Origin: Pseudomonadota bacterium
Lineage (GTDB): Bacteria > Myxococcota_A > Polyangia > Polyangiales > JAFGIB01
Assembly: GCA_017881185.1 (NCBI GenBank)
Contig: JADGRE010000001.1
Span: 9,286-73,285 of the forward strand
Length of the DNA stretch: 64,000 bases
Direction of reading: 5' to 3'
Under the pieces are notes generated by a model, which was given only the letters and a program-made list of their open reading frames with translations, was not told where the DNA came from and ran no database searches. A program made the position numbers and the translations under genes. Each line of letters opens with the position of its first letter. Position 1 is the stretch's first letter. Below, in pieces: positions 2,195-64,000 of this stretch.

Positions 2195-2327
2195 GCGGTG
2201 CCGGCAAGCATAGCAGCCACGGCCGCGGCCGGCAGGCCAGCCGACCACACTCTCGACGCGCCGTGCAGCCTGTTCCATACTGCGCCTGCTCGCAGCGTCT
2301 CCAACCTCGAAATGAGCACGAATTGCC

Positions 2328-22123: not shown

Positions 22124-23826
<1,703 letters not shown>

Positions 23827-23830
<4 letters not shown>

Positions 23831-46802: not shown

Positions 46803-46845
46803 CAGGTCGACCTCGCGGCGCTTGGACGCCAGAGCGGCTGGGGGT

Positions 46846-48231: not shown

Positions 48232-48254
48232 GCGTGAGCGGGACACGAGCTGGC

Positions 48255-48809: not shown

Positions 48810-48822
48810 GAACGACCAGAAC

Positions 48823-48861
48823 CTGGACAAAAAGCCACGATTGGCTTGCCCAGCTTTTTTT
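48823..48861 (+). terminator. rho-independent terminator
   Basis: CTGG..AAGCCA-cgat-TGGCTT..CCAG stem followed by C and T7 (48855-48861), 14 nt after the stop at 48809. It is followed by an unusually AT-rich spacer. Confidence 0.55.
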
Positions 48862-48947
48862 CGTTCTCCATATAGTCACGTACACTCGCTGGACTCCACG
48901 CGCGCCGCTGCCGACCCACCGGGATCGCAAGCGTCTGCTTCGAGTCT

Positions 48948-50396: not shown

Positions 50397-50493
50397 AGCG
50401 CCGAGCGCTGCCGCAGCACTTTCGTGCAGCAGCCACGCAACTGAACGAAGCGCAGGTCGATGACCATGCACAACGCGCGAGCTCGCGCACTGC

Positions 50494-50706
50494 ATGAAGG
50501 AATCGACCATGAACGCACTTCGTAAGTTGTTTCGCAGCACCGTCGTCAGCGACCAGCGTGGGTTGACCACGGTGGAATACGTGATCGCGCTGGGCTTGAT
50601 CGCGGCGGTGGCGGTCGGGAGTTGGAAGACCTTCGGCGACAAGGTCAAGGGGCACCTCGAGGCATCTACGAACAGTGTCGAGACAGCGTTCGGCAACAAG
50701 CCGTGA
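50494..50706 (+). CDS. flp: Flp-family type IVb/c pilin
   Basis: The processing motif G/xxxxEY is seen as RG-LTTVEYVIALGLIAAVAV. 70 aa. Confidence 0.85.
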   Translation: MKESTMNALRKLFRSTVVSDQRGLTTVEYVIALGLIAAVAVGSWKTFGDKVKGHLEASTNSVETAFGNKP

Positions 50707-50713
50707 TTGATCG

Positions 50714-50905
50714 ATGGACCGGATCAATCCACGGCGTACCCGACTGATCGTCACCACCGATACGCGCGGTGTCACCACCGTCGAGTACGTGCTCGCACTC
50801 GGCCTGTTCACCGCCGGCCTCGTCGCTCCGCTGATCGCGCTCAGTGTCGCGCTCGCGCGTCTGTTCAACTTCCAGCAAGCCTTGTTGCTCTTCCCTGCTC
50901 CCTGA
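50714..50905 (+). CDS. second Flp-like pilin
   Basis: RG-VTTVEYVLALGLFTAGLV. 63 aa. Confidence 0.7.
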   Translation: MDRINPRRTRLIVTTDTRGVTTVEYVLALGLFTAGLVAPLIALSVALARLFNFQQALLLFPAP

Positions 50906-50911
50906 CCCGCC

Positions 50912-51451
50912 ATGCCAACCGTATTCTCCGCGTACTTCGCTTGTGCTGCACTCCTCTTGGCGCTGCTGTCTGCCATCTCCGACACCCGTACTGGCCACAT
51001 CCCGAACCTCTTGACCCTCCCCCCGCTCGCCGTAGCGCCCCTGGTTCACGCCCTGCTTGGTGGACCAGGGGCGCTCGGCGGGTCCCTACTGGGCGCGTGC
51101 CTGTGCGCCGTGGTGCCTGCCTTCGCGTTCGCGCGTGGTGCGATGGGCGGCGGCGATCTCAAGTTGTTCGCCGCGCTCGGGGCGCTGCTCGGCTTCGACC
51201 TCGGCCTGCAGATCGAGCTTGCTGCACTGTGGCTCGCCACCCTTTGGGTGTGCGCGCGCTTCGCTTGGCAAGGCCAGCTCTTTCACCTGCTGCGCAGCGC
51301 GCTCGCGTTCTTCTGGCAGCGCTGCTCGCGACGCGCGTCACCGTCGCCCACGCCGGCAGTACTGCAGACCAAGCTACGCCTGGGCGCAGCCATCGGCGGC
51401 GCGACCTTGGCGGTGCTCGCGCTCGACAAACTCGCCTGGCTGCGGCCATGA
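50912..51451 (+). CDS. cpaA: prepilin peptidase (A24 family, CpaA/TadV-like)
   Basis: A polytopic membrane protein with two Asp motifs (SDTRTGHIPN and MGGGDLKLFAALG). Confidence 0.85.
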   Translation: MPTVFSAYFACAALLLALLSAISDTRTGHIPNLLTLPPLAVAPLVHALLGGPGALGGSLLGACLCAVVPAFAFARGAMGGGDLKLFAALGALLGFDLGLQIELAALWLATLWVCARFAWQGQLFHLLRSALAFFWQRCSRRASPSPTPAVLQTKLRLGAAIGGATLAVLALDKLAWLRP

Positions 51452-52257
51452 GCCCGCGCACACAAGTAGCCCGCTGCGAAGCAGGCACCGTGACCGTGGA
51501 GCTACTGATTGCCTTCCCACCCGTGTTCCTGCTCTTCCTCGGCGCGTTGCAGCTTGCGCTGATGTATGCGGCCGATCTGGTCGTGCATCACGCGGCGTGG
51601 GCTGCCGCGCGCTCGGCCGTCGTGGTGCTCGACGACGACCCCAAACGCTACGCGAACGAAGCTCCCCGCTGCATCACCGAAAGCGGCGGCGACTCGAGCG
51701 TGGTGAGCGGACTCACGACGACGCTGGGCAGCTACTTCCCGGCCGGCGCCTCCGGCGGCTCCTCGTCCGCCGCCGACAGCGGCAGCACACACTCGGGACG
51801 GCGACTGGCTGCCATCCAACACGCCGCGCTGCTCCCGCTGTCGGCGCTCTCCTCGGACCCGTTTCCGCTCTCGCTGCTGTCCACGTCCTCCGTCGCTGCG
51901 GTCACCTTCCCGGCAAGTCCTGGAGCCGACGAGCTGCAGACCAAACAAGTCGCGCTCGGCAACGAGCTCACCGTGCGCGTGACCTACCTCTTCACCTGCG
52001 CCATTCCCGTCGTCTCCGCACTGCTCTGCGACTCGCTCATCCAGCGCCGCATAAGCCAGCTGACGGCAAAGCTCGGCTTCGGCAAGCCGGATCGCAGCTT
52101 CGAGCAAGGCCAGAAAGAGCTCGCGCACGCACCCTTTGCACTCGGCCAAGCGCTGCTCTGGGCCAAGGGCACGCGCGTTCGCATGCTGCGAGCCGAGGCG
52201 ACGCTGCCAACCCAGTGGTTGCCTTACCCGATCCCGGCGGACAACCCATGCAACTGA
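51448..52257 (+). CDS. TadE-like pseudopilin/pilus assembly protein
   Basis: ATGA overlap with cpaA. N-terminal GTVTVELLIAFPPVFLLFLGALQLAL is a TadE-type motif. Confidence 0.7.
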   Translation: MSPRTQVARCEAGTVTVELLIAFPPVFLLFLGALQLALMYAADLVVHHAAWAAARSAVVVLDDDPKRYANEAPRCITESGGDSSVVSGLTTTLGSYFPAGASGGSSSAADSGSTHSGRRLAAIQHAALLPLSALSSDPFPLSLLSTSSVAAVTFPASPGADELQTKQVALGNELTVRVTYLFTCAIPVVSALLCDSLIQRRISQLTAKLGFGKPDRSFEQGQKELAHAPFALGQALLWAKGTRVRMLRAEATLPTQWLPYPIPADNPCN

Positions 52258-54206
52258 GCGACGCAAGCGCCGATGGCTCTGTGTTCACCAGCGCTCCGTT
52301 CTCACCGTTTCGAAGCCACATGCGACTCATCCTCAAAGACCAACGTGGTGCCATCGCAGTGCTCGCGCTGCTCATGACGGTGTGCCTCGTGGGTGCGCTC
52401 TACTACGTCGTAGGCATCGGCCAAGCGGTGCTGCTGCGCGAACGCCTGCAAGACGCGGCCGACGCAGGCGCCTACTCTTCGGCGGCCATCCTGGCGCGCG
52501 GCATGAATTTGCTCGCGCTCATCAACCTGATCATGAGCGCGCTCTTGGCGGTGCTGGTGGCGCTGAAGCTCGTGCAGACGGTGTGCATGGTGGCGGGTCC
52601 GATTCTGGCAGCTGTCGGGTTCTGGTGTCCGCCCTGTGCTGCCGCGGCGCCTCTGGTCATCAGCGCGGGCCAGAACGCAGGCAATGCCGCCGAGCAGCTG
52701 AAGCAGGAAATCATGCCCATGCTCAAAGTGCTGCACCTGGCGGCGCGCGGAGTCCGGCAGATCGTTCCGATCATCGCGCAGGTCGAGGTGGTGGACACGG
52801 TGCTCTCACACTACAAGCCGCCGGCTGCGTTCGGTTTCGCGCTGCCGGCACGCCTCACCCTACCGACCAAGGACGACGACTTCTCGGTGCTGTGTACGCA
52901 CGCGGCGAGCTTCGTCGGAGACATGGTGATGCTGCCGTTCAAGTCCGTTCCGGGCGTGGGTGGAGCAGGCCCGGTGCACGACTTGGTGTCGGGCGCCCTC
53001 GAGGGCCTCGCCAAAGCTGCGCCCGGATGGTTCTGCGGCGAGGCTGGGGCAAAGCCACCAGAATACGAGGTGAAGTACTGGCAGCACCTGCCGGTGCTCG
53101 CCGAGCGGCAGGCCTGCATCGACGCCAAAGGCAGCAAGGACGAGGTCTCCAAGTTGTGTGCGCAGGCCGACGAAGCAGAGCGGCGCTCTTTCCCGGACCG
53201 TGATGACGGCGACTGCAGCGGCTCGCCCTGCGATCCCGCGACCTACCACGCCCGCGTCGTGCAAGCGCGCAGCGCGTGCGATCCGAACCTGGATGGAGCG
53301 CTCGTCGACTACGGCTGGCAAGAACGCACGGTCACGCGTCACTACCAGCGAGTGAACGGCGTGTTTCAGCTGACCACTGAAGAACCCACGCCCGCGAGGC
53401 TCGTGATCCCCACCGGCTCGGACCCCACGCAGGCTCGCTACGGAGAACGCGGCGAAACGCAACTGCCCTGTCCGCGCACCGAAGGCCGCGTCGAGTGGAA
53501 CGAGCACGAGCACACGGACGACGCACCGGACAAGCTGCTTCCCGTCTGCAGCGAGCTGCTCGACAGCCACTACGATGATCTACACACCCAGGCGCAGCGT
53601 ACCGACACCGTGCGCGAGGTACTGCAAGTGCTGCACTGCGACAAGCACGTGACGAAGAAGCAGTCGGTCGACGGTTTCAAGAACAACCGCGTCGCAGACA
53701 CGGGCGGCGAAGACGCACAGCAGGACTCGAAGACCGAACACTCACCACAAGCCCCGGAAGATGGTGTGCAGCTCGAAGACGACAACTTTCAGGCACGGGT
53801 CGTCGTGCTGGGAGGCGCGGCCAGTGGTCTGCCAGCCAAGGTGCTCGCAGCCACCAGTTGGGGCCGCGACACCACGAGCAGCACGGCAGCAGCGATGCGC
53901 GAGCTGGGTCGCATTCAGGTTGCCGAGGCGGAACTCTACTTCGACGATCCGCAAGCACCCGACATCTCCGCGGAGTGGCTGTGGAACTTGAGCTGGCGCG
54001 CGCGCCTGCGGCACTTCCACTTGGCGGCGAACGCGACCGACAACGCTGGCGCCGGCGCTGACGGGCAGGACTCGGCGCCGGACGGGCTCAGTGCACCGAC
54101 CGATCTGCTGGGCGCGTGCAATCGCGTCGCCGGCGGCACCGATGCCAGCAGCTGCAGCGGTCTGGCGGACCAACTGAACACGCTCGGCGACCTAATTGCT
54201 CATTGA
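52248..54206 (+). CDS. large TadG-like pilus assembly protein with unassigned Cys/acidic-rich C-terminal region
   Basis: N-terminal QRGAIAVLALLMTVCLVGALYYVV...DAADAGAYSSA (TadG/Tad N-terminal type). Alternative start at 52320. The upstream 397 codons of the 1049-aa track ORF were rejected. Confidence 0.7.
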   Translation: MQLSDASADGSVFTSAPFSPFRSHMRLILKDQRGAIAVLALLMTVCLVGALYYVVGIGQAVLLRERLQDAADAGAYSSAAILARGMNLLALINLIMSALLAVLVALKLVQTVCMVAGPILAAVGFWCPPCAAAAPLVISAGQNAGNAAEQLKQEIMPMLKVLHLAARGVRQIVPIIAQVEVVDTVLSHYKPPAAFGFALPARLTLPTKDDDFSVLCTHAASFVGDMVMLPFKSVPGVGGAGPVHDLVSGALEGLAKAAPGWFCGEAGAKPPEYEVKYWQHLPVLAERQACIDAKGSKDEVSKLCAQADEAERRSFPDRDDGDCSGSPCDPATYHARVVQARSACDPNLDGALVDYGWQERTVTRHYQRVNGVFQLTTEEPTPARLVIPTGSDPTQARYGERGETQLPCPRTEGRVEWNEHEHTDDAPDKLLPVCSELLDSHYDDLHTQAQRTDTVREVLQVLHCDKHVTKKQSVDGFKNNRVADTGGEDAQQDSKTEHSPQAPEDGVQLEDDNFQARVVVLGGAASGLPAKVLAATSWGRDTTSSTAAAMRELGRIQVAEAELYFDDPQAPDISAEWLWNLSWRARLRHFHLAANATDNAGAGADGQDSAPDGLSAPTDLLGACNRVAGGTDASSCSGLADQLNTLGDLIAH

Positions 54207-54212
54207 GAGACC

Positions 54213-54752
54213 ATGCGACCCCAACCCAAATCAACCGCTCGTTCAAGAATATACAGACCGCGTGGTGCACGTGCCACGCACGGCACGGCCAGCGTCGAGG
54301 CAGTCATCGCGTTGCCGCTGTTGATCCTATTGCTCATCGGCATCAGCTACGTTCACCACCTGTACGCCGCCAAACAGCAGACCCTGCTTGCGGCTCGCAA
54401 GGCCGCGTGGACCCAAGCCATCAGCGGCTGCACGAGCGGACCGAGCGCGACCACGGGCAGCACCGGCACACCGGGTGGCGCCATTCCGAGCTACGTCGCC
54501 CAACATGGCGCGCACAGCGACGACAACAGTCTCGCGAAGATTCCCGTGGTGGGCGAGGCCTTGTCGAATCTCATCCTGCCGGGCACTTCAAGCGTGGCCA
54601 GCGCAAGCGTGCAACGCCCAACGCAGCTCGATGGTGGCGTGGACACCCTCTCCACCGAAAGCTACGTCGGCTGCAACGAACCTCATCGCGACGCGCACAA
54701 AGACGCGCTCGGCGTGTTTACCGACCTGGTGTCGAGCAAGCTCGACCCGTAA
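54213..54752 (+). CDS. TadE-like pseudopilin
   Basis: GTASVEAVIALPLLILLLIGISYV TadE N-terminal motif. Confidence 0.75.
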   Translation: MRPQPKSTARSRIYRPRGARATHGTASVEAVIALPLLILLLIGISYVHHLYAAKQQTLLAARKAAWTQAISGCTSGPSATTGSTGTPGGAIPSYVAQHGAHSDDNSLAKIPVVGEALSNLILPGTSSVASASVQRPTQLDGGVDTLSTESYVGCNEPHRDAHKDALGVFTDLVSSKLDP

Positions 54753-54764
54753 CGAGGCACACAG

Positions 54765-55643
54765 ATGCTCAGCTCCTGGCACTCCAAGCTCGCCCGCCTC
54801 GCTCGACTGTCGGCGTTCGCGCTCACCGTACAAATCATCGGATTGTGCTGGCTGGGACACAGCGTGCACGCACGGGCGAACGCCTCACTCGAACGCATCG
54901 GCGAACAGGCATTGCACTACGCCCGGGCGTTCCATCGCGCACCGACACACACGCTGAGCGTGAACGGCCTCGCATTCGAGCTGTCCGTCGGCTCCAGCCA
55001 CGACCCCGTGGGCAGCGTGCTGGCTGCATACCGAGCGCAGTGCCGACAATGGAACGCGGCGCTGCCATCGATGCCGCACGCGAATGCGGCAGACCTGGCC
55101 CTGCAGGCCGAGACCCGCGAGCGTGGCTATGTGGCTTGCCTCGATCCCGGGGCAAGCCTCGGCCCACTCGCCTGGGCGCAGCGCGTGAGTACCTTCGCAC
55201 AAGACCTTGACCTCAGTCGCTTTGGGGCCGTGCTGTACGTGGTCGCCGAGCGCGCCGGCGAAACCACGACGTACGTGGCCATGAAGTCAGTTGGACCGAT
55301 GCTGCTCACGGCGGCGTTTCCGACCTCGGGCGATGCGCCCGGTGTCGACCCAGCTAACGCGCCGCGTCCAGCGCATGCTCGCCGCGTGCTGTCGGGGTGG
55401 CAGCGCGACGCCTCGCCCCTGTTCAACGTCTACGAAGCACGCGCTGTCTCGTCCGCGCAGCTGCTGGCACGCTACCGCACGCAGCTCGAAGCAGCCGGTT
55501 ACCACGTGGCAAACGTAGTAACTCGAGCGCAGTCGTCTGCCACGGCCTCACTCGCCGCCACCCGCGGATCAGTCGTGCTCCTGGCCACGGCGTCGCAGGG
55601 CGACGGCGACCGCGCTCTCCTCTCGGTTACGCCGCTGCGCTAG
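54765..55643 (+). CDS. membrane-anchored hypothetical protein in tad locus
   Basis: N-terminal anchor LSAFALTVQIIGLCWLG. 292 aa, no family recognised. Confidence 0.6.
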   Translation: MLSSWHSKLARLARLSAFALTVQIIGLCWLGHSVHARANASLERIGEQALHYARAFHRAPTHTLSVNGLAFELSVGSSHDPVGSVLAAYRAQCRQWNAALPSMPHANAADLALQAETRERGYVACLDPGASLGPLAWAQRVSTFAQDLDLSRFGAVLYVVAERAGETTTYVAMKSVGPMLLTAAFPTSGDAPGVDPANAPRPAHARRVLSGWQRDASPLFNVYEARAVSSAQLLARYRTQLEAAGYHVANVVTRAQSSATASLAATRGSVVLLATASQGDGDRALLSVTPLR

Positions 55644-55702
55644 ATGACCGAGCGCGGCGCCCGGAACGAGCGAGGCGCCGTTCCCGAATCGCGCTCGGTC
55701 AT
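55644..55702 (+). terminator. 59-nt extended hairpin (candidate attenuator / mRNA processing-stability element)
   Basis: The outer stem is 13 perfect bp, ATGACCGAGCGCG with CGCGCTCGGTCAT. The inner stem is 6 bp, GGAACG with CGTTCC. It starts at the base after the TAG stop, and there is no U-tract. Confidence 0.45.
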
Positions 55703-55805
55703 TTAGCAACTGCCTGGCGACGCGACCGATGCGCTGCACGTAGAGCATGGCACCGCACCAGCTGCTCGTGCGAATGCCAGCGCTCTGCGGAAGGCGGATA
55801 CCCGA

Positions 55806-56501
55806 GTGGAGAAGAAAGCGCTCAGCGTCGCGCTCGCAGCAGCAGTCGTCGGCTTCGGCCTCTTGCAGCTGTACATGCACCACTTCGAGGCGGAGGCCAC
55901 TGGCGGCGAGAAGCTCTCGGTTCTGGTCGTCACGCGGGACCTGCAAGCTGGCGACACCCTCGACCGCGCCTCGCTCGCGTCGCGAGGGCTGCCGCAGGCC
56001 TACGTGGAATCCCGCCACATTCGCGTCGCCGACCTCGACCGTGTGCTCGGCCAACGGCTGGCGGCGCCCGCCAAGGCCGATGAAGCACTGCTGTGGACCG
56101 ACCTCGAGAGTCTGGCAACGCCCGTGCGCACGCTGTCCACGCTCGTGCAGGAAGGCATGCGCGCGGTCAGCTTGCACCTCTCACGAGGCTCGCTCGGCAA
56201 CATGCTGCGACCGGGGGACCGAGTCGATGTCCTATGGATCGCCAACGCCGGCAACAATCAGCAGCCGGCCGCAGCACCACGCACCCTGCTCGAGAACGTG
56301 CTCGTGCTGGCCATCGGCGCGCAGCTGACGTCCGCGAATGACGCAACAGCAGCCGCACGCAGCGGCGACGCGTCGCAAGTCACGCTCAGCGTCACGAGCG
56401 ACCAAGGCAGCGCCATTGCCCTGGCCGAGACCCAAGGCTCGCTGCGTCTGCTCTTGCGCAACCCGGACGACATCAGCACCAGCACGGCGGCGGCACGGTG
56501 A
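55806..56501 (+). CDS. cpaB: Flp pilus assembly protein CpaB/RcpC (SAF domain)
   Basis: N-terminal TM, then VLVVTRDLQAGDTLDRASL (SAF-like). The position before the secretin gene fits. Confidence 0.85.
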   Translation: MEKKALSVALAAAVVGFGLLQLYMHHFEAEATGGEKLSVLVVTRDLQAGDTLDRASLASRGLPQAYVESRHIRVADLDRVLGQRLAAPAKADEALLWTDLESLATPVRTLSTLVQEGMRAVSLHLSRGSLGNMLRPGDRVDVLWIANAGNNQQPAAAPRTLLENVLVLAIGAQLTSANDATAAARSGDASQVTLSVTSDQGSAIALAETQGSLRLLLRNPDDISTSTAAAR

Positions 56502-57664: not shown

Positions 57665-59289
57665 TGCTCGGAGCGCTCGTCGTGGAGCATCCCGACGGTC
57701 GGCAAACCACGCGCACGCTGTCGCCTGGTGCGTCATGCTGGATCGGGCGTGACCCGAGCTGCGAGATCGTGTTGCCGGCAAGCTCGGTCTCGCGCCGACA
57801 CGTGTGCGTGGAGCCGGTCGGCGAACGGCTGCGCATTCGCGATGACTCCGCCAACGGGACGCTGATCGACGCCCAGGCCCTGGTGCGACAGACACGCCTG
57901 GTGGACTGGACTTCGGTGCTCGGTGTCGGCCCGTATCGGATCGAGCTGCGTCGCGCGCAGCCAGCCGAGGTGCCTGCGCCTCGATCCGCGCACGAGCGCA
58001 TCTCGAACCTGCCCCAGGCTCCTGATGCCATGGTCTCGCTACAGACACGCAAGCGCATTCGTGACCAGCTACTGGATCACCTCGACCTCGCCGAGCTCGA
58101 TCGCAGCGCAATGCACGATGCGACGCTGCGCCCGAAGGTTCGCTCTGCGCTAGAGATGATCTGCCGCGAGCTTGGCGCGCTGGTACCGCCCTGCGCGCGC
58201 GACGCGCTCATCAACGAGCTGTGCGACGAAGCGCTGGGCCTCGGTCCCCTCGAACGGCTGCTCGCAGACGAGAGCGTAAACGAGATCATGGTGGTCGACC
58301 CGAGCCACATCTTCGCGGAGCGCAACGGCCGCATCGAACGCACCACTGCGTGTTTCACCGACGAGGACTCCGTGCGTGCGGTAGTCGAACGCATCGTCAC
58401 GCCGCTGGGGCGGCGCATCGACGAATCCAACCCGCTCGTGGACGCGCGTCTCAAGGACGGCTCGCGCGTGAACGCCGTCATCAGGCCACTGGCCAACAAG
58501 GGTCCGTGCATCACCATACGCAAGTTCGCCGCCAAGCCCATCGGTTTCGAGCGCCTGCTCGAGCTGGGCTCACTCGACGCCCGCATGCTGCGCTTTCTGC
58601 AACGCGCAGTTAAGTGCCGTCGCAACATCATCGTCTCCGGCGGCACCGGCAGCGGCAAGACCACGCTGCTCAACGTGCTCTCGAGTGCCATCGCCGAGCA
58701 CGAGCGCATCGTCACCATCGAAGACGCCGCCGAGCTGCGCCTGCAGCAAGCACACGTGGTGTCGCTCGAGTCGCGACCGAGCAATCTCGAAGGACGCGGT
58801 GAGATCACCATCCGCGATCTCGTGCGCAACGCCCTGCGAATGCGGCCGGACCGGATCATCGTCGGCGAGTGCCGCGGCGGGGAGGCCATCGACATGCTGC
58901 AGGCGATGAACACCGGACACGAAGGCTCGATGACCAGCCTGCATGCCAATAGCCCCACCGAAAGCATCGCGCGGCTTGAGACGCTGTGTTTGATGTCCGG
59001 CCTCGATCTGCCGTTGCGAGCAGTGCGTGCGCAGATCGCCTCGAGCGTTCACCTGATCGTGCAACAGACACGGTTCGAAGACGGCAGCCGGCGCATCAGC
59101 CACATCACCGAAACCCGCGGCGTCAACGACGCAGGCGAGCTGGAGCTGACCGACATCTTCCGCTTCGAACGCAACGCACGCGGCAACGCAGGCGCCGCGG
59201 CGGGCGAGTTTCGCGCCACTGGCTACCTCCCGGGCTGCCTTGGGCTGTTCCTGGAGCGCGGCTTGGTCACCGACGGAGTGTACCTATGA
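57661..59289 (+). CDS. cpaF: CpaF/TadA-type secretion ATPase with N-terminal FHA domain
   Basis: The FHA domain is CWIGRDPSCEIVLPASSVSRRHVCV...DDSANGTLIDAQ. The ATPase shows Walker A GGTGSGKTTLLN, VTIEDAAEL, Walker B RPDRIIVGECRG and GHEGSMTSLHA. Confidence 0.9.
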   Translation: MMLGALVVEHPDGRQTTRTLSPGASCWIGRDPSCEIVLPASSVSRRHVCVEPVGERLRIRDDSANGTLIDAQALVRQTRLVDWTSVLGVGPYRIELRRAQPAEVPAPRSAHERISNLPQAPDAMVSLQTRKRIRDQLLDHLDLAELDRSAMHDATLRPKVRSALEMICRELGALVPPCARDALINELCDEALGLGPLERLLADESVNEIMVVDPSHIFAERNGRIERTTACFTDEDSVRAVVERIVTPLGRRIDESNPLVDARLKDGSRVNAVIRPLANKGPCITIRKFAAKPIGFERLLELGSLDARMLRFLQRAVKCRRNIIVSGGTGSGKTTLLNVLSSAIAEHERIVTIEDAAELRLQQAHVVSLESRPSNLEGRGEITIRDLVRNALRMRPDRIIVGECRGGEAIDMLQAMNTGHEGSMTSLHANSPTESIARLETLCLMSGLDLPLRAVRAQIASSVHLIVQQTRFEDGSRRISHITETRGVNDAGELELTDIFRFERNARGNAGAAAGEFRATGYLPGCLGLFLERGLVTDGVYL

Positions 59290-60137
59290 GCTTGCTGGCT
59301 TGGTTGCCGCTGTTGGCGGCAGCGTTGATCGCGACGGGCGTGAGCTACGCGCTCAGCTGTGTGTGGTTTCGCCCGGGTGCAGTACCGCGACTGCCCGAGT
59401 ACGCGGCTCGACTGGACCGCGACCTGCGCTTCCTGCGGCGCCGCGAACCGGCAATGCTGGTGGCGGGCGCCCAGATCACCGCGTGCGCACTGCTCGGTTG
59501 CACCGCCTTGCTGTGTGCGAGCGTCGGGCTGCTCGTGCTCGCGCTCGTGGTCGCCTGGATGCCCGGACACTGGCTCGAGCGCCAGCGCGCGCTTCGTATC
59601 ACGCGCCTGGAAGAACAGATCGACAGTTGGTTGCTAGCACTAGCGAACGCGCTGCGCGCCACGCCCTCGCTCGGTGACGCGTTGGCGTCGACGGTCTCGC
59701 TGGTTCCGGCACCACTGTGTGTGGAGCTGGAGCTCGCGCTCAAAGAGTATCAAGTCGGCGTAGCGCTCGATGAAGCGCTGCTGCGGATCGGCACTCGGGT
59801 GGGCAGCCGCACGCTGAGCGCGGCACTGCTCACGCTCCGCATCGCACGCTCCGCGGGCGGCAACCTGAGCGCGTGCCTGGAGCGCTCCGCTGCAGCCCTG
59901 CGCGAGATGACACGCCTCGAAGGCGTAGTGCGCACCAAGACCGCCGAAGGCAAGGCGCAGGCCTTCGTGATCTCAGTGCTGCCACTGCCTCTGTTCGCGT
60001 TACTCAACTGGATCGACAGCGCGTTTCTCGCGCCACTACCAACCTGCACCACCGGACAACTGATCCTCGCGATCGCCGCCACGCTGTGGGGCGCAGCCGT
60101 GCTACTCGCGCGGCGCTTCGCCCACGTCGACATCTAG
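59286..60137 (+). CDS. tadB: TadB-like inner-membrane platform protein (T2SSF domain)
   Basis: ATGA overlap with cpaF. TM-cytoplasmic helical domain-TM layout with LRAxxSLxDAL-type motif. Confidence 0.85.
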   Translation: MSLLAWLPLLAAALIATGVSYALSCVWFRPGAVPRLPEYAARLDRDLRFLRRREPAMLVAGAQITACALLGCTALLCASVGLLVLALVVAWMPGHWLERQRALRITRLEEQIDSWLLALANALRATPSLGDALASTVSLVPAPLCVELELALKEYQVGVALDEALLRIGTRVGSRTLSAALLTLRIARSAGGNLSACLERSAAALREMTRLEGVVRTKTAEGKAQAFVISVLPLPLFALLNWIDSAFLAPLPTCTTGQLILAIAATLWGAAVLLARRFAHVDI

Positions 60138-60146
60138 GGAGCCCAA

Positions 60147-61040
60147 ATGACCACCGGAACCTTGCGCCTCACCGCTGCGGGATTGTTCGCCCTGGCGCTC
60201 TTCTTCTTCGTCGTGGCGGCTGCGCAGAGCCCCACCGCCGCGGCGCGCTCGCTCGGGCATCGCGGACTGCAACGGCAGCAGGCTCGCGCGCGCAGCCTGG
60301 GCTTTCGGCTGTTCGATGCACCGGTGCGTTGGCTCGCCCAGCACATGGCGCGCCTGCCGATCGCGCAGACGCGTGCGCGCCTCACCCTGCACCTGCAGCG
60401 CTCGGGCGACTACATGGGACTGGACGCCGACGAGTTGCTGGCGCTGATCGCGCTCGGTGCCGTGCTCGGGGCGGTCATGGGCTTCGAAGTCGGGGGCGTG
60501 CTCGGCTGGGGTGCCTTCGGCGTGCTGCCCGGCGTCGTGCTCGGCGGCTGGTCACCGTACCTGCGCGTCACCGACAACGCGCGCCGACGCGACCGCGCGC
60601 TGGACCACGCCTTGCCGCCCGCCATCGACCTGCTCTCGCTGTGCATGAGCGCGGGCCTCGATTTCAACGGCGGTCTGCAGCTGTTGGCGCGCGAAACCCA
60701 GCTGCGCGACTCGACGCTGCAGGCCGAGCTGCAGCGCATCCTGCAGGGCCTGCAGACTGGCCAGACTCGACGCCAGGCGCTGCTCGAGCTGGCGGCTCGA
60801 AGCTCGGCAACTTCGGTGCACGAGCTCGTGCGTGCCGTGGTGCAAGCCGACGAAAAGGGCACGCCGCTGGCAACGGTGCTGGAGATTCAGGCGCAGATGT
60901 TGCGCATGCGACGCAGTGTGCTGGCCGAGGAAGCCGCTGCCCGCGCGGCCGTGCTGCTCGTGCTGCCCTTGCTTTTGCTCATGGGCTGCATCCTGATCGT
61001 GATGCTCGGTCCGTTCATCGTGAAGGGCATCGGACTGTGA
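60147..61040 (+). CDS. tadC: TadC-like inner-membrane platform protein (T2SSF domain)
   Basis: LPPAIDLLSLCMSAGLDFNGGLQ... and a C-terminal TM pair. Confidence 0.85.
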   Translation: MTTGTLRLTAAGLFALALFFFVVAAAQSPTAAARSLGHRGLQRQQARARSLGFRLFDAPVRWLAQHMARLPIAQTRARLTLHLQRSGDYMGLDADELLALIALGAVLGAVMGFEVGGVLGWGAFGVLPGVVLGGWSPYLRVTDNARRRDRALDHALPPAIDLLSLCMSAGLDFNGGLQLLARETQLRDSTLQAELQRILQGLQTGQTRRQALLELAARSSATSVHELVRAVVQADEKGTPLATVLEIQAQMLRMRRSVLAEEAAARAAVLLVLPLLLLMGCILIVMLGPFIVKGIGL

Positions 61041-61103
61041 GCCGGCAGCGAACGAAGTGGTGGTCGGCCGCAACAATCGATTCGCCACGCCGATGGAGGG
61101 AGT

Positions 61104-61634
61104 GTGAAGACGAGATCATGTCACTGCGTGCAAAGACGCGCCGGCGCGGTCGCCAACGCCATCTGCCTGCTGGCGTGGTGCGCGCAAGCCTGCAGCGCGT
61201 CGAGCGCACAGCGTGCGCAGACCAGTCATCCGCCTGCGCCCACCCTGCGCGCCGGGACCGAAGCGTGCAGCCCCACGCTCTCACCGCTGCGGCGAGCCCA
61301 AGAGACCGAAGCGCGCGCCACTGCCCGAATGCAGAGCTTTGCATTCTCTGCGAGCGACGGTGTCGTGGCGCTCGATCTGCTTGCCGAATCACAGCTTTGT
61401 TACCGCGCGTGTGGGCACCAGGCGGACGCCGAACGCGTTCAGCAACGGCAAGCGCGCTGGCAGCGCAAGCTGGACACGGACTACCAGGGCCATCAGGTGC
61501 GGCTGGCGCACGCCTTGCGCACTCAGCGCACGCCCGATGCAGTGGCCGAGAGCCGCGCGTTGCTGGCTCTGCTCGGCTCACACGACGGCGCCTATACGGC
61601 ATGGCTTCGGCACGTCGAGAAGGGCGAGCCATGA
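61104..61634 (+). CDS. Cys-containing putative lipoprotein, unknown family
   Basis: GGAGGG before GTG 61104. Leader ICLLAWCAQAC. Good third-position bias, unlike the Arg-rich alternative frame. Confidence 0.5.
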   Translation: MKTRSCHCVQRRAGAVANAICLLAWCAQACSASSAQRAQTSHPPAPTLRAGTEACSPTLSPLRRAQETEARATARMQSFAFSASDGVVALDLLAESQLCYRACGHQADAERVQQRQARWQRKLDTDYQGHQVRLAHALRTQRTPDAVAESRALLALLGSHDGAYTAWLRHVEKGEP

Positions 61635-62242
61635 GCCGCCGAGACCCGCATCCAGCGAAATTGCACGCAGCGACACTGTGCTGCGTGCTCGCAGCCGTCA
61701 GCTGCGCGGCGAACCCACCCCGGCCCACCGCCAAACCGGCAGAGCCCAGCGTGGCGATACGCTACCTGCAAAGCGGCGACTACTACGCGCAGCGCGGCGA
61801 CCTGCTGCGCGCGGAGCAGTACTTCGCGAGCGCGGTGAACGCTGGCTATCCCGAGAGGAGCGCGCTGCCCAAGCTCGTGCGGGTTTGCCTTGCTGGCGGC
61901 AGGGTGCGGGCCGCGCTCGGCCACGTGGAGGCTCACCTGGCGCACGACCCAGCTGACACAGCGGCACACTATCTCGCTGCGTCGTTGCAACTTGCGTTGG
62001 GCCGGCCCGCGCTTGCGCGTGAAGAGCTGCGGACAGTCCTGAGCGCGCAACCACGCCACGCCGGCGCACACTACTTGCTCGCGACCCTCAGCCACGACTG
62101 GCTTCGCGATCCGCGAGCGGCGGTTGCCGAGCTGCAGCTCTACCTGAAGCTCGCACCAGCTGGCCCTCACGCCGCGCAAGCCCATGCCTGGTTGGCGAGC
62201 CTGCGCTTAGCGCACCGGCACCGACCTTGGAGGCAGCCATGA
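61631..62242 (+). CDS. TPR lipoprotein (TadD-like)
   Basis: ATGA overlap. Lipobox LAAVSCAAN. TPR-like repeats (YYAQRGDLLRAEQYFASAV..., AHYLAASLQLALGRPALAREEL...). Confidence 0.7.
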   Translation: MSRRDPHPAKLHAATLCCVLAAVSCAANPPRPTAKPAEPSVAIRYLQSGDYYAQRGDLLRAEQYFASAVNAGYPERSALPKLVRVCLAGGRVRAALGHVEAHLAHDPADTAAHYLAASLQLALGRPALAREELRTVLSAQPRHAGAHYLLATLSHDWLRDPRAAVAELQLYLKLAPAGPHAAQAHAWLASLRLAHRHRPWRQP

Positions 62243-63210
62243 TGATTGCGCATGAGATTCACGAGCAGATGTTGCACGCGCTGCTGGGGCCCATTGCCGA
62301 GCTGCTGGCCGATGCGAGCGTCAGCGAGATCATGCTCAACGGCCCGGGCGAGGTGTACTGCGAGCGGGCCGGCCGGCTGATCCTCACCGAGCTGTGCTTC
62401 TCGAGTGACGAGGCGCTGTTGGCTGCCCTGCGCAACATCGCGCAATTCGTGGGCAGACCCATCGACCACGAGCATCCCATTCTGGAGGGCCGCTTGCCCG
62501 ACGGCTCGCGCGTGCAGGCCGTGATCCCACCGGCCGCACCGAGCGGTCCGCTGGTCAGCATCCGCCGCTTCTCGAAGAGTGCGATGACCATCGAGCGTCT
62601 TGTGCAGCTCGGCGCGTTGAGCGGCAGCAGCGCCCGCAACCTCCAGGAGGCCGTGGTGAGCAAGCGCAATGTGATCGTGTCGGGTGGCACGGGTTCGGGT
62701 AAGACCTCACTGCTCAACGCATTGTCGTCGTTCATCCCGGACGACGAGCGCGTCGTGGTGATCGAAGACTCCCGCGAGCTGCAGCTGCAGCGCGCGCACG
62801 TCGTTCACCTCGAAGCCCAACCCGGTGACGCCAAGGGCCGCGGACGCATCGACATCCGCGAGCTGTTTCGGGCCAGCCTGCGCATGCGTCCTGATCGCAT
62901 CGTGCTCGGCGAGATCCGCGGCGCCGAAGCGCTGGAGCTGATTGCAGCGATGACCTCAGGACACGGCGGCTGCTTGGCGACCCTGCACGCAAGCCATCCG
63001 CACGATGCGCTTGCGCGCCTGGAAACGATGGCGAGCATGAGTGACGTGCGCATGCCTCTGCACGCGCTACGCGAGCAGATCGCGTCGGGTGTGGATGTCG
63101 TGGTGCAAGTGGAACGCCAGCGCTCTGGACAACGCAAGGTCACCCAACTCGCCAGCGTCGCCGGCTTGAACGACGACGGCAGCTACCGCTGGCAGGAGCT
63201 GTCGACATGA
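62239..63210 (+). CDS. second, compact CpaF/VirB11-like secretion ATPase (no FHA, short N-terminus)
   Basis: GGAGG lies 5 nt before ATG 62239, with an ATGA overlap. Walker A GGTGSGKTSLLN, VVIEDSRELQL, RPDRIVLGEIRG and GHGGCLATLHA are present. Confidence 0.85.
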   Translation: MMIAHEIHEQMLHALLGPIAELLADASVSEIMLNGPGEVYCERAGRLILTELCFSSDEALLAALRNIAQFVGRPIDHEHPILEGRLPDGSRVQAVIPPAAPSGPLVSIRRFSKSAMTIERLVQLGALSGSSARNLQEAVVSKRNVIVSGGTGSGKTSLLNALSSFIPDDERVVVIEDSRELQLQRAHVVHLEAQPGDAKGRGRIDIRELFRASLRMRPDRIVLGEIRGAEALELIAAMTSGHGGCLATLHASHPHDALARLETMASMSDVRMPLHALREQIASGVDVVVQVERQRSGQRKVTQLASVAGLNDDGSYRWQELST

Positions 63211-64000
63211 GCGCGCCGACGAAGCGTTCCGAGAGCAGACCGACGCGCATGCAGGCCATACGCCGACAAGGCACTGTGCGGCCCTCGCCCTGCGATCCCG
63301 AGCTCACGACACACTGTCCCGCCGAGTTGCTGGCGGGCTTGCTGGCGACCGAGCGCGCGCAACCGAGCTGCGCGACGACCGCGGCCTATGAGCAGACACG
63401 TCTCGATCTCGATCTGGCCGCGCGCGTCGCCGTCGACGCGTTTCGCGTGCAGGCCACGCCGCGACCACTGCGACCCTCACGGCAAATACAGCGCCCCGCC
63501 GTGTCGGCGTCCAAGCACGCGCTGCCGCTCGCCGACGCACCAACCGTCGTCACCGCGAAGGGCGCGCGAGCACCACGTGCACCAGCGACCGCTACCGCGC
63601 TTCGCGGCAAACCGAGGAGGAAGACCAAGCTCGTCACTGTAGTCGTACTCGGCGCCGCAGCCTGCTCGCTCGCAATCTTGGGCTGCATCATGTGGACCTT
63701 CTTGCCGCACACAGGTGCACCGCGAGGCGCTGCTGTGACACCAACGACCACGCCCACGGCCAATCGAACGCGGGTCGTGGCAGCTGGAACTGCCGACGCA
63801 GCCGCGCAGGCCGCACCGCCTCGTGCGCCTGCGTACCCCCCACCCTTGACCGCGGGTCCGTCGCTGCCGCCGGCCGCCGCGACCACGCAGCCGCCCACAC
63901 CCGCCCAAGCGGCGGACAGCTTGGCGCATGGCGATCTCGCGCAGGCCGCGCGCGCCTACCAAGCCCTCGCACGCACTCGGCAGGCAAATCTCGTCTTCGG
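63207..64000 (+). CDS. membrane protein (cytoplasmic N-terminus, one TM, Pro/Ala-rich periplasmic part, TPR-like onset), partial at window end
   Basis: ATGA overlap with the preceding stop. My own translation stays open to base 64000. The TM helix is LVTVVVLGAAACSLAILGCIMWTF. It is absent from the ORF track because no stop lies in the window. Confidence 0.6.
   Translation, partial: MSAPTKRSESRPTRMQAIRRQGTVRPSPCDPELTTHCPAELLAGLLATERAQPSCATTAAYEQTRLDLDLAARVAVDAFRVQATPRPLRPSRQIQRPAVSASKHALPLADAPTVVTAKGARAPRAPATATALRGKPRRKTKLVTVVVLGAAACSLAILGCIMWTFLPHTGAPRGAAVTPTTTPTANRTRVVAAGTADAAAQAAPPRAPAYPPPLTAGPSLPPAAATTQPPTPAQAADSLAHGDLAQAARAYQALARTRQANLVF

What the first reader, a model, noticed from the sequence alone, without database searches (positions are those of the whole stretch)
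50494..64000. Tad/Flp pilus-like locus with non-canonical composition, possibly a Kil-type contact-dependent apparatus
At least sixteen co-directional genes form this locus.
- Two Flp pilins with the G/xxxxEY motif (RG-LTTVEY, RG-VTTVEY).
- An A24 prepilin peptidase.
- Three TadE/TadG-type pseudopilins, one of 652 aa.
- An unknown 292-aa membrane protein.
- Then nine genes, eight of whose junctions are ATGA/GTGA overlaps: CpaB, secretin, FHA::CpaF ATPase, TadB, TadC, Cys-containing lipoprotein, TPR lipoprotein, second ATPase, and a TM/Pro-rich/TPR protein that runs off the window.

It departs from textbook Tad loci in several ways. FHA is fused to the motor. There is a second motor-type ATPase. 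No TadZ/CpaE ParA-like gene is visible. At least three genes have no recognisable family.

In Myxococcus xanthus a Tad-like machine (Kil) serves contact-dependent prey killing rather than adhesion. A myxobacterium-like host and a phospho-threonine-responsive motor make that a reasonable hypothesis, but nothing in the sequence proves it.
Basis: partly seen in the sequence, partly recalled or inferred. Interest (0 to 1): 0.75.

Follow-up and report, generated by a model that had tools for sequence, protein, structure and literature searches.

The report
Two-motor Tad/Kil-like pilus locus
This is a real and complete gene cluster for a Tad-type pilus in an uncultured myxobacterium; it belongs to the lineage related to the prey-killing Kil machine, and it carries a conserved, stripped-down second motor ATPase that the literature I searched does not mention for Tad systems.

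Summary
Window 50494-64000 carries 16 co-directional genes:
- two Flp pilins and a TadV-type peptidase;
- three TadE/TadG minor pilins and an orphan membrane protein;
- CpaB, a secretin and an FHA-CpaF ATPase;
- TadB and TadC;
- a bitopic protein and a TPR lipoprotein;
- a second CpaF-like ATPase and a TM/Pro-rich/TPR-like protein cut by the window end.

No TadZ was found in the window, in the nearest relative's downstream DNA, or next to 87 of 88 related loci.

The layout is not a one-off. The module CpaB-secretin-FHA-CpaF-TadB-TadC-x19-TPR-short CpaF recurs in 50 of 61 informative Polyangia loci, including Chondromyces. The scan confirmed 455 relatives of the second ATPase among species-representative genomes.

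The main motor is a known class III (FHA) CpaF. In my NJ tree it is sister to the Kil-like ATPases of Bradymonadales (87%) and lies outside the M. xanthus KilF clade.

The second ATPase forms a 100%-supported clade. It lacks the three-helix bundle, keeps all catalytic motifs, and is the most conserved gene of the locus (dN/dS 0.14).

A role in prey killing is plausible but unproven. Verdict: a new variant of a known kind, of moderate interest.

The parts
50494..50706 (+). g01, Flp prepilin (70 aa), candidate major pilin; predicted cleavage RG|LTTVEY
   Evidence: G/XXXXEY motif read directly. Pfam Flp_Fap E 5e-5, 23.4 bits, below the gathering score of 32.2. Homologues sit next to the peptidase gene in 11 related loci.
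50714..50905 (+). g02, second Flp-like prepilin (63 aa), RG|VTTVEY, hydrophobic C-terminus; possibly a minor or adapter pilin
   Evidence: Identified by motif only; no Pfam or NCBIfam hit. g02-like ORFs lie beside g01-like ones in L017 and L044.
50912..51451 (+). g03, TadV/CpaA-type prepilin peptidase (179 aa), A24 domain only
   Evidence: Pfam Peptidase_A24, 52.9 bits, covering residues 12-113. Both Asp motifs (ISDTRTGHIPN and GGGDLKL) read directly.
51448..52257 (+). g04, TadE-like minor pilin (269 aa)
   Evidence: Pfam TadE, 31.3 bits, at residues 13-55. 4-nt overlap with g03.
52248..54206 (+). g05, TadG-like large minor pilin (652 aa, 16 Cys); candidate backbone of a pilus tip complex
   Evidence: Pfam Tad (TadE/G-like N-terminus), 27.4 bits. 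Cys count. The analogy with the KilN/TadG tip backbone comes from PMC12075869 and is an inference.
54213..54752 (+). g06, TadE-like minor pilin (179 aa)
   Evidence: Pfam TadE, 32.3 bits.
54765..55643 (+). g07, orphan membrane-anchored protein (292 aa) that lies directly upstream of CpaB in relatives; two invariant Cys
   Evidence: No Pfam, NCBIfam or PDB match, even with a 14-sequence profile. Found upstream of CpaB in 25 related loci. 745 relatives among 1.84 billion cluster representatives. dN/dS 0.44 against L009. Single-sequence AF2 model unusable, pLDDT 42.
55806..56501 (+). g08, CpaB/RcpC (231 aa)
   Evidence: Pfam RcpC 88.8 bits plus SAF. NCBIfam TIGR03177 CpaB 132.5 bits against a cut-off of 71.
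56498..57664 (+). g09, short secretin (388 aa from GTG 56498, or 385 aa from ATG 56507)
   Evidence: Pfam Secretin 100.1 bits at residues 186-340, plus a weak T2SS-T3SS_pil_N hit at 39-104; no other N-domain family listed. The gene caller used the ATG start.
57661..59289 (+). g10, FHA-CpaF motor ATPase (542 aa): FHA, linker, three-helix bundle, NTD, ATPase domain and C-terminal motif (class III CpaF)
   Evidence: Pfam FHA 42.6 bits plus T2SSE 221.7 bits. Aligns to C. crescentus CpaF residues 85-475. FHA phosphothreonine-binding residues (GR, SxxH, NG) read directly. NJ tree: Polyangia clade 90%, sister to Bradymonadales 87%.
59286..60137 (+). g11, TadB-type platform protein (283 aa)
   Evidence: One T2SSF domain, 39.4 bits. 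4-nt overlap with g10.
60147..61040 (+). g12, TadC-type platform protein (297 aa)
   Evidence: One T2SSF domain, 60.9 bits.
61104..61634 (+). g13, bitopic protein (176 aa, 8 Cys): a member of the 'x19' family (FHA-TM-helical domain, about 290 aa in relatives) that has lost its FHA domain
   Evidence: hhalign of the g13 alignment against the x19 family: 99.9%, E 4e-37, matching x19 residues 118-291. x19 of Chondromyces has an FHA-fold (Yop-YscD_cpl) N-terminus. The 63-nt gap to g12 leaves no room for an FHA domain. dN/dS 0.29.
61631..62242 (+). g14, TPR lipoprotein (203 aa), a TadD/PilW-like candidate pilotin
   Evidence: Pfam TPR_19/14/16; weak PilW and BamD NCBIfam hits. A lipobox-like match in 52 of 77 family members under a permissive pattern.
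62239..63210 (+). g15, second 'minimal' CpaF-like ATPase (323 aa): NTD plus ATPase domain only, with no FHA, IDR, three-helix bundle or C-terminal motif
   Evidence: T2SSE 192 bits. 48% identical to the g10 core. Aligns to CpaF residues 148-445 of 501 only. AF2 model pLDDT 82; best Foldseek matches are CpaF at E 6.5e-33, then FlaI and VirB11; PilT only about 1e-12. Walker A, Asp box, Walker B and His box invariant in 14 family members. Clade support 100%. Lowest dN/dS of the locus, 0.14. 455 relatives in species-representative genomes.
63207..64000 (+). g16, a protein with an N-terminal cytoplasmic region, one TM segment, a Pro-rich stretch and a C-terminal TPR-like motif. It is cut by the window end; the orthologue in L009 is 314 aa. 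It is a shortened relative of the FHA-headed 'x22' family
   Evidence: Sequence read directly. Aligned with orthologues, and hhalign of the C-terminal motif against the x22 family gives 97.7%, E 1e-12. In most loci the gene after the short CpaF is 450-600 aa with an FHA-like N-terminus.

Best explanation
The region encodes a complete Tad (type IVc, Flp) pilus machine. It is the TadZ-less, FHA-regulated lineage typical of Polyangia (Myxococcota), and it is related to the Kil systems of predatory bacteria.

Shown by domain and family matches:
- Two Flp prepilins and three TadE/TadG-type minor pilins are present. A TadV-type A24 peptidase is present that would cleave them at G|xxxxEY.
- The inner-membrane platform is a TadB/TadC pair.
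- The motor is a class III CpaF with an N-terminal FHA domain that keeps its phosphothreonine-binding residues.
- CpaB/RcpC and a short secretin provide the periplasmic and outer-membrane conduit. A TPR lipoprotein is a TadD-like pilotin candidate.

Inferred:
- Assembly is gated by Ser/Thr-kinase signalling through the FHA domain, not positioned by TadZ. Kinase genes lie beside the locus in relatives.
- The Cys-rich 652-aa TadG-like pilin, with the two TadE-like pilins, forms a pilus tip complex.

A second CpaF paralogue, reduced to NTD plus ATPase domain, is an integral and catalytically competent part of the system. It is translationally coupled to the TPR lipoprotein gene and to the following membrane-protein gene. 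I infer it is a second motor acting on the same machine. The most likely roles are specialisation for one direction (retraction, analogous to PilT) or for one step of the cycle.

Whether the pilus serves contact-dependent prey killing, as in M. xanthus, or adhesion cannot be settled from sequence. I lean slightly towards a contact-dependent role.
For: Core parts.

No TadZ.

A conserved system, not an accident of one genome:
- The same order is found in a Polyangiales MAG, a Sandaracinaceae MAG and Chondromyces crocatus.
- 50 of 61 loci with at least 6.5 kb of upstream sequence carry FHA-CpaF and TadC upstream of the short CpaF.
- The scan confirmed 455 relatives of the short CpaF among GTDB species representatives.

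Kil relationship:
- NJ tree with 200 bootstraps: Polyangia FHA-CpaF clade 90%, sister to Bradymonadales Kil-like ATPases 87%. It is separated at 100% from alphaproteobacterial CpaF, on which the tree was rooted.
- Gene order follows the locus-tag order of Kil cluster 2 and of the Bradymonas genes.
- Relatives carry two further FHA-headed proteins and a Ser/Thr kinase in the locus.

Second ATPase:
- Domain limits.
- Fold.
- Invariant catalytic motifs.
- Distinct clade at 100%.
- Strongest purifying selection in the locus.
- 4-nt overlaps on both sides.
Against: - The motor is not inside the M. xanthus KilF clade, and the tree's backbone is weak (5-53%).
- Class III FHA-CpaFs are common in non-predatory beta- and gammaproteobacteria, so FHA says nothing about predation.
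- No KilD homologue was found, and in this window only the motor keeps an FHA domain.
- No T3SS*-like genes were seen among the ORFs I scanned, which cover about a third of the gene-sized ORFs upstream of the locus.
- A TadG-like pilin and a TadD-like lipoprotein are present, both of which Seef et al. listed as missing from Kil.
- For the second ATPase, no feature assigns a direction. The residues and C-terminal motif reported as needed for CpaF-driven retraction do not separate the two paralogues. This window's copy has lost the C-terminal motif altogether.
- dS is about 1, so the dN/dS values are rough.
Confidence: 0.75

Rival explanations
1. It is a Kil-type contact-dependent prey-killing apparatus. 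The pilus is assembled at prey contact sites after phospho-signalling through the FHA domain, and its minor-pilin tip mediates prey recognition and killing.
For: - The motor clade is sister to the Bradymonadales Kil-like ATPases at 87%.
- TadZ is absent.
- Gene order follows the locus-tag order of Kil cluster 2 and of the Bradymonas genes.
- Relatives have FHA-rich accessory genes and an adjacent Ser/Thr kinase.
- There is a large Cys-rich TadG-like pilin, as in the KilN tip backbones.
- The system occurs in Chondromyces, Sandaracinus and Labilithrix, genera reported to carry Kil homologues and read as predatory there.
Against: - The motor lies outside the KilF-proper clade, which has its own Polyangia-labelled members with a KilF-KilD context.
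- No KilD homologue was found.
- The accessory FHA domains are lost in this subclade.
- M. xanthus tip genes are reported as almost exclusive to Myxococcales.
- No T3SS* partner was seen.
- The host's lifestyle is unknown.
- There is no functional evidence.
Confidence: 0.35
2. It is an ordinary adhesive or surface-sensing Tad pilus that happens to use a class III (FHA) CpaF. The second ATPase is a redundant paralogue with no separate role.
For: - All canonical Tad parts are present, including TadG-like and TadD-like proteins.
- Class III CpaFs are widespread in non-predators.
- Adhesion is the function generally described for Tad pili.
Against: - TadZ, listed among the minimal Tad components, is absent.
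- The second ATPase is the most constrained gene in the locus (dN/dS 0.14). It forms a deep, 100%-supported clade found in hundreds of genomes, always without the three-helix bundle. That is not the pattern of a redundant copy.
- The nearest characterised relatives are Kil-like systems.
Confidence: 0.25
3. The short CpaF does not drive the Flp pilus. Together with the FHA-TM protein, the TPR lipoprotein, the FHA-headed protein and the downstream lipoprotein, it forms a separate envelope-spanning module, for example for effector export or for signalling to the pilus machine.
For: - In 11 of 61 loci the genes (x19)-TPR lipoprotein-short CpaF-(x22)-x18 lipoprotein stand alone, more than 6.5 kb from any CpaB-to-TadC genes.
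- The module has its own cytoplasmic, inner-membrane and lipoprotein members.
- g15 has the size and two-domain layout of VirB11/TrbB, and scores 233 bits against a cut-off of 250 for VirB11.
Against: - The module has no platform (T2SSF) or channel protein of its own.
- In 50 of 61 loci it is fused into the Tad operon, with overlapping stop and start codons.
- By sequence and fold, g15 is far closer to CpaF than to VirB11: 272 against 138 bits, and Foldseek E 1e-33 against 1e-24.
Confidence: 0.15

Closest known systems
Kil-like Tad genes of Bradymonas sediminis (DN745_00680-00700), classed as Kil-like by Seef et al. 2021
   Same: The locus tags run in the order CpaB, secretin, ATPase, TadB, TadC, matching this window. 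Its ATPase is the sister group of this window's motor clade at 87% bootstrap. Both share the NSPTE variant of the CpaF 384-388 segment.
   Different: About 60% identity over the ATPase core. I could not read the Bradymonas genome, so I do not know whether it has a second ATPase, an FHA domain on its motor, or the accessory genes.
Myxococcus xanthus Kil system (MXAN_3102-3108 and MXAN_4648-4661)
   Same: - FHA-fused CpaF motor and no TadZ.
- CpaB, TadB/TadC, a short secretin, a short A24 peptidase and TadE/TadG-type minor pilins.
- An FHA-family protein and a TPR protein listed next to the platform genes.
- Myxococcota host.
   Different: - Kil is split into two clusters; this locus is contiguous.
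- KilF forms a separate clade.
- In KilF-clade relatives (L089, L090) the ATPase gene is followed by a double-FHA KilD-like gene, which is absent here.
- Kil is described as having a single ATPase; this locus has a second CpaF paralogue.
- Only Kil has experimental evidence for prey killing.
Class III CpaF (FHA-IDR-3HB-NTD-CAD), for example Achromobacter xylosoxidans E3HIW0 (Yen et al. 2025)
   Same: g10 has this architecture: FHA plus a region aligning to CpaF 85-475.
   Different: Class III was reported mostly in betaproteobacteria. g10 belongs to a Polyangia clade nearer to the Bradymonadales.
Caulobacter crescentus Cpa and Aggregatibacter Tad loci (canonical Tad pili)
   Same: The same core: Flp pilin, TadV/CpaA, RcpC/CpaB, RcpA/CpaC, TadA/CpaF, TadB/TadC, TadE/F/G and a TadD-like lipoprotein.
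   Different: - Canonical loci have TadZ/CpaE and a single bifunctional CpaF.
- This locus has no TadZ, an FHA-gated motor, a second three-helix-bundle-less CpaF and orphan proteins (g07, g13, g16).
- The alphaproteobacterial CpaFs, used to root the tree, are separated from all other ATPases at 100% bootstrap.
PilB/PilT dual-motor arrangement of type IVa pili
   Same: There are two paralogous hexameric-ATPase genes in one pilus system. One has an extra N-terminal domain and the other is reduced to NTD plus ATPase domain, as in PilB versus PilT.
   Different: g15 is not a PilT family member: TIGR01420 scores 45 bits against a cut-off of 319, and Foldseek to PilT gives about 1e-12. It arose by a duplication within the CpaF lineage. 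Denise et al. 2019 list ATPase duplications only for PilB/PilT and PilT/PilU. Its direction of action is unknown.

Membership tests
Tad / Flp (type IVc) pilus system | Flp-type prepilin with a G/XXXXEY processing motif | tested here: met
   g01 reads RG|LTTVEY and g02 RG|VTTVEY. Flp_Fap E 5e-5 for g01, below the gathering score.
Tad / Flp (type IVc) pilus system | Dedicated short A24 prepilin peptidase (TadV/CpaA type) | tested here: met
   g03 is 179 aa, with Peptidase_A24 at 52.9 bits and no other domain. Both Asp motifs are present.
Tad / Flp (type IVc) pilus system | TadA/CpaF-family ATPase | tested here: met
   g10 against solved CpaF: E 2e-104. T2SSE 221.7 bits.
Tad / Flp (type IVc) pilus system | Split platform: TadB and TadC, each with one T2SSF domain | tested here: met
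   g11 and g12 each have a single T2SSF domain. The split is described as systematic in Tad systems by Denise et al..
Tad / Flp (type IVc) pilus system | RcpC/CpaB and secretin RcpA/CpaC | tested here: met
   TIGR03177 CpaB 132.5 bits against a cut-off of 71. Secretin 100.1 bits.
Tad / Flp (type IVc) pilus system | TadZ/CpaE ParA-like positioning ATPase | tested here: not met
   No ParA/CpaE family hit in any of the 16 products. No KGGxG(K/x)[ST] ORF in the 64-kb window or in 87 of 88 related loci. None downstream in the nearest relative. A copy elsewhere in the genome cannot be excluded.
Tad / Flp (type IVc) pilus system | TadE/TadF/TadG minor pilins | tested here: met
   g04 and g06 match TadE; g05 matches the Tad (TadE/G-like) N-terminus.
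Tad / Flp (type IVc) pilus system | TadD-type TPR lipoprotein (pilotin) | tested here: inconclusive
   g14 has TPR repeats and a lipoprotein-type N-terminus. 52 of 77 family members match a permissive lipobox pattern. There was no direct comparison with TadD.
Kil system (M. xanthus type) | CpaF motor fused to an N-terminal FHA domain | tested here: met
   g10 has FHA at 42.6 bits plus T2SSE. The feature is not exclusive to Kil.
Kil system (M. xanthus type) | ATPase groups with KilF in phylogeny | tested here: not met
   g10's clade (90%) is sister to Bradymonadales (87%). KilF and its relatives form another group at 53%, and the deeper nodes are unsupported. The tree is NJ on 295 columns only.
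Kil system (M. xanthus type) | KilD-type cytoplasmic FHA/TPR protein encoded next to the ATPase | tested here: not met
   KilF-clade loci have a 667-721 aa double-FHA protein after the ATPase. hhalign against g16 gives 2% probability, and against the x19 and x22 families only FHA-level similarity.
Kil system (M. xanthus type) | Several further FHA-domain proteins in the cluster | tested here: not met
   In this window only g10 has an FHA domain. g13 and g16 are FHA-less versions of families that are FHA-headed in most related loci.
Kil system (M. xanthus type) | Single motor ATPase; no TadG or TadD | tested here: not met
   A second CpaF paralogue (g15), a TadG-like pilin (g05) and a TadD-like lipoprotein (g14) are present. 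The feature list is from Seef et al..
Kil system (M. xanthus type) | [quoted passage not shown] | not testable with these tools
   This needs genetics and microscopy. No T3SS*-like genes were seen among the window ORFs I scanned.
Class III CpaF (Yen et al. 2025) | FHA, IDR, three-helix bundle, NTD and C-terminal ATPase domain | tested here: met
   g10 has FHA at residues 27-80, a linker, and residues 129-522 aligning to CpaF 85-475.
CpaF 'minimum architecture' (class I: 3HB + NTD + CAD) | Three-helix bundle N-terminal to the NTD | tested here: not met
   g15 begins 15 residues before the position equal to CpaF residue 148. All 14 aligned family members start there.
PilT-type retraction ATPase | Member of the PilT/PilU family by sequence or fold | tested here: not met
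   g15 scores 45 bits on TIGR01420 against a cut-off of 319. Foldseek to PilT4/PilU gives about 1e-12, against 6.5e-33 for CpaF. Only the two-domain layout is shared.

The most novel reading that the evidence does not exclude
Polyangia Tad/Kil-like machines are natural dual-motor Tad systems. The three-helix-bundle-less short CpaF would be a dedicated second motor, for example for retraction. It would have arisen by a duplication inside the CpaF lineage, independently of the PilB/PilT split. That would contradict the current view that Tad pili always rely on one bifunctional CpaF.
Probability: 0.3. Interest if true: 0.8.

Novelty: new variant of a known kind. Interest (0 to 1): 0.55.

Why it matters
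Tad pili are presented as the type IV filaments that extend and retract with one bifunctional ATPase. How a single motor does both is actively debated. A large, conserved Tad lineage with a second, minimal CpaF paralogue under strong selection offers a natural experiment. It could show which parts of CpaF are needed for which direction or step.

The locus also extends the Kil-related family to a contiguous, two-ATPase form that is common in Polyangia. This group includes cultured predators such as Chondromyces, and there is no genetic work on the system in them.

Three protein families that travel with it are defined here: g07, the x19 family (g13) and the x22 family (g16).

Tried and rejected
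1. Extending the window. The look-up of encoding contigs returned only two short Logan contigs that end inside the window, not the 81-kb NCBI contig. The species-representative scan did not contain the window's own genome. Downstream content is therefore inferred from the nearest relative, L003/L009.

2. Fetching full-length M. xanthus KilF. I searched with a 235-aa fragment copied from the published supermatrix. Only proteins of 412 aa or less were listed, so no full KilF or M. xanthus locus was obtained. I used two KilF-clade partial loci instead.

3. Testing a retraction role for g15. I used the features reported as needed for CpaF-driven retraction (the P386/R387 equivalent and the C-terminal motif). 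Both paralogue clades vary at R387, and both usually keep the C-terminal motif. Only the window, L009 and L010 lack it, so this gives no discrimination.

4. KilD homology. Comparison of KilD-like proteins with g16, x19 and x22 showed only generic FHA similarity.

5. Identifying g07. A profile against PDB and per-member Pfam scans found nothing. The single-sequence AlphaFold model had pLDDT 42 and was discarded without a fold search. The tool does not accept orthologues taken from loci as alignment rows.

6. One Pfam call failed on a mis-framed reference and was not repeated. The window upstream of 43 kb is only partly annotated.

7. I considered whether frame 1 (GTG 61037) or frame 0 (61213) could be the real gene after TadC. 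I rejected both, because the frame-2 product has E 4e-37 profile homology to a conserved family and matches the gene caller.

Full report
**1. What is there**

The window has 66-71% G+C. Third-position G+C and ORF structure give 16 co-directional + strand genes between 50494 and the window end. The calls for g08-g16 match an independent gene caller on two identical public contigs.

Profile searches identify the following:
- g01: an Flp prepilin, RG|LTTVEY. Flp_Fap E 5e-5, below the gathering score.
- g02: a second Flp-like prepilin, RG|VTTVEY, by motif only.
- g03: a 179-aa A24 peptidase with both Asp motifs.
- g04 and g06: TadE-like minor pilins.
- g05: a 652-aa TadG-like minor pilin with 16 Cys.
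- g07: a 292-aa membrane-anchored protein with no family.
- g08: CpaB/RcpC, TIGR03177 132 bits against a cut-off of 71.
- g09: a 385-388-aa secretin.
- g10: an FHA-CpaF ATPase.
- g11 and g12: TadB and TadC, one T2SSF domain each.
- g13: a 176-aa Cys-rich protein.
- g14: a TPR lipoprotein.
- g15: a second T2SSE ATPase of 323 aa.
- g16: a TM/Pro-rich protein cut by the window end.

Six of the eight junctions from g08 to g16 are 4-nt stop/start overlaps. The g11/g12 gap is 9 nt and the g12/g13 gap is 63 nt.

**2. TadZ is absent**

None of the products matches a ParA/CpaE family. A six-frame scan for the deviant Walker A motif (KGGxGK[ST], and a relaxed form) found no ORF in the whole 64 kb. Among 88 related loci, only one had such ORFs.

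The window's own downstream DNA could not be obtained. In the nearest relative, a Polyangiales MAG whose second ATPase is 81% identical, the locus continues with the g16 orthologue (314 aa) and a 237-aa lipoprotein. It then ends at a convergent acyl-CoA dehydrogenase gene.

**3. It is a conserved system of Polyangia**

The same gene order occurs in a Sandaracinaceae MAG and in the complete genome of Chondromyces crocatus. In C. crocatus a Ser/Thr kinase gene directly follows the second ATPase.

A scan of one genome per GTDB species used two peptide signatures of the second ATPase. It confirmed 455 relatives. The 80 best are nearly all labelled as Myxococcota or deltaproteobacterial MAGs, plus Chondromyces apiculatus.

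Mapping all window proteins onto these loci shows the order CpaB-secretin-FHA-CpaF-TadB-TadC-x19-TPR lipoprotein-short CpaF, followed by an FHA-headed protein (x22) and/or a lipoprotein (x18). FHA-CpaF and TadC lie upstream of the short CpaF in 50 of the 61 loci that have at least 6.5 kb of upstream sequence. In the other 11, the x19-TPR-short CpaF-x22-x18 genes, or a subset of them, stand alone.

**4. The 'unknown' genes**

- g13 is homologous to the C-terminal two thirds of the x19 family (hhalign 99.9%, E 4e-37). x19 proteins are about 290 aa and have an N-terminal FHA-fold domain, a membrane segment and a helical domain. The window's subclade has lost the FHA part.
- g16 shares its C-terminal TPR-like motif with the x22 family (97.7%). 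In most loci x22 is 450-600 aa with an FHA-like N-terminus.
- g14 belongs to a family in which 52 of 77 members match a permissive lipobox pattern. This fits a TadD/PilW-like pilotin.
- g07 remains an orphan. A 14-sequence profile finds nothing in PDB or Pfam, and a single-sequence model was unusable. Even so, it has 745 relatives among 1.84 billion cluster representatives, and in relatives it lies next to CpaB.
- All of these ORFs show dN/dS below 0.6 against the nearest relative, although dS is near saturation.

**5. The main motor and the Kil question**

g10 aligns to C. crescentus CpaF residues 85-475 and carries an N-terminal FHA domain with the canonical phosphothreonine-binding residues. 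This is the published class III CpaF architecture, reported mostly in betaproteobacteria. FHA-CpaFs from gamma- and betaproteobacterial MAGs also turned up in my search. The FHA fusion alone therefore does not point to predation.

I built an NJ tree of 295 columns with 200 bootstraps. It included ATPase segments copied from the published Kil supermatrix. The results:
- g10 falls in a Polyangia FHA-CpaF clade (90%).
- That clade is sister to the Bradymonadales ATPases (87%), which Seef et al. classed as Kil-like.
- The group including Bdellovibrio is weak (33%).
- M. xanthus KilF and its relatives form another group (53%). It includes Polyangia-labelled MAG proteins.
- In two KilF-clade loci the ATPase is followed by a double-FHA KilD-like gene and then by genes with no Tad-family domains. 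There are no platform genes and no second ATPase.
- The alphaproteobacterial CpaFs, which I used to root the tree, are separated from all the other ATPases at 100%.

The order minor pilins-CpaB-TadB-TadC-FHA-family protein-TPR protein follows the locus-tag order of Kil cluster 2. The CpaB-secretin-ATPase-TadB-TadC core follows the Bradymonas locus-tag order. A comparative study has already reported Kil homologues in Chondromyces, Sandaracinus, Labilithrix and Minicystis.

So the locus is a relative of Kil, not an orthologue of the M. xanthus system. It also fails several features listed for Kil: a single ATPase, no TadG or TadD, KilD, and many FHA proteins.

**6. The second ATPase**

- g15 is 48% identical to the g10 core.
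- It aligns only to CpaF residues 148-445 of 501. It lacks the disordered region, the three-helix bundle and the C-terminal motif.
- Typical family members are about 380 aa. They also lack the three-helix bundle but keep the C-terminal motif. Only the window, L009 and L010 have lost that motif.
- This is below the 'minimum architecture' (class I) described for CpaF.
- An AlphaFold model built with 14 homologues (pLDDT 82) matches CpaF best (E 6.5e-33), then FlaI and VirB11. PilT is distant at about 1e-12.
- Walker A, Asp box, Walker B and His box are invariant in the family.
- The family is a 100%-supported clade on a long stem.
- g15 has the highest identity (81%) and the lowest dN/dS (0.14) of the locus.
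- Its gene overlaps both neighbours by 4 nt.

It is therefore a functional, integral component. Denise et al. list ATPase duplications only for PilB/PilT and PilT/PilU. Current Tad papers describe a single bifunctional CpaF. Searches for a second CpaF found nothing relevant.

Its two-domain layout parallels PilT versus PilB. However, the reported retraction-specific residues do not separate the two paralogues, so its direction or role stays inferred. The stand-alone modules keep open the possibility that it powers a separate sub-assembly.

**7. Verdict**

The finding is real. It is a Tad-type pilus locus of a Kil-related, TadZ-less, FHA-gated lineage that is common in Polyangia. The feature that deserves attention is the conserved minimal second CpaF. 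I rate it a new variant of a known kind, with interest 0.55.

Noticed in passing
proteins P0003-P0022 (hits to window 57661-59289): Chloroflexi proteins of about 780-880 aa (Herpetosiphonaceae, Roseiflexaceae and Ardenticatenaceae MAGs) are tandem fusions of two complete CpaF cores. The two halves form sister clades, so this is an independent CpaF duplication that stayed fused. One comparative study also lists Herpetosiphonales among the predators with Tad-like genes.
   Followed up: partly
L023, L025, L026, L031, L036, L046, L052, L068, L072, L088 (stand-alone modules); L057 (different arrangement): In 11 of 61 Polyangia loci the short CpaF has no TadC upstream within 6.5 kb. In ten of them, some or all of the genes FHA-TM protein, TPR lipoprotein, short CpaF, FHA-headed protein and lipoprotein stand alone, away from any CpaB-to-TadC genes. 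In L057 an FHA-CpaF gene is directly followed by the short CpaF.
   Followed up: partly
window 61104-61634 and 63207-64000; L009, L010, L012, L053: The small subclade that contains the window has lost the N-terminal FHA domains of two accessory families (x19 and x22). [quoted passage not shown] The motor's own FHA domain is kept.
   Followed up: yes
window 3456-5549 (-): A 697-aa Ser/Thr protein kinase with a DUF4388 domain lies 45 kb from the locus. In relatives, kinase genes lie directly beside the locus (L008 11236-12852, L003 14635-16230).
   Followed up: no
window 46802-49393 (-) and 49623-50480 (-): Two ORFs immediately upstream of the locus on the opposite strand (863 aa and about 285 aa) have no Pfam match. 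Third-position G+C suggests that at least the second is coding.
   Followed up: no
L044 13845 and 14756 (+): This is the only related locus with MinD/ParA-type (KGGTGKT) ORFs. There are two of them, 3-5 kb downstream of its short CpaF. It is unclear whether they belong to the system.
   Followed up: no
window 134-2626, 22124-30614, 38281-39729: The other ORFs I scanned in the window look like housekeeping or lipid and polysaccharide metabolism genes: M3 peptidase, two AMP-binding enzymes, a pyruvyl transferase, a reductase and HisRS. There are no tRNA genes in the 64 kb.
   Followed up: no
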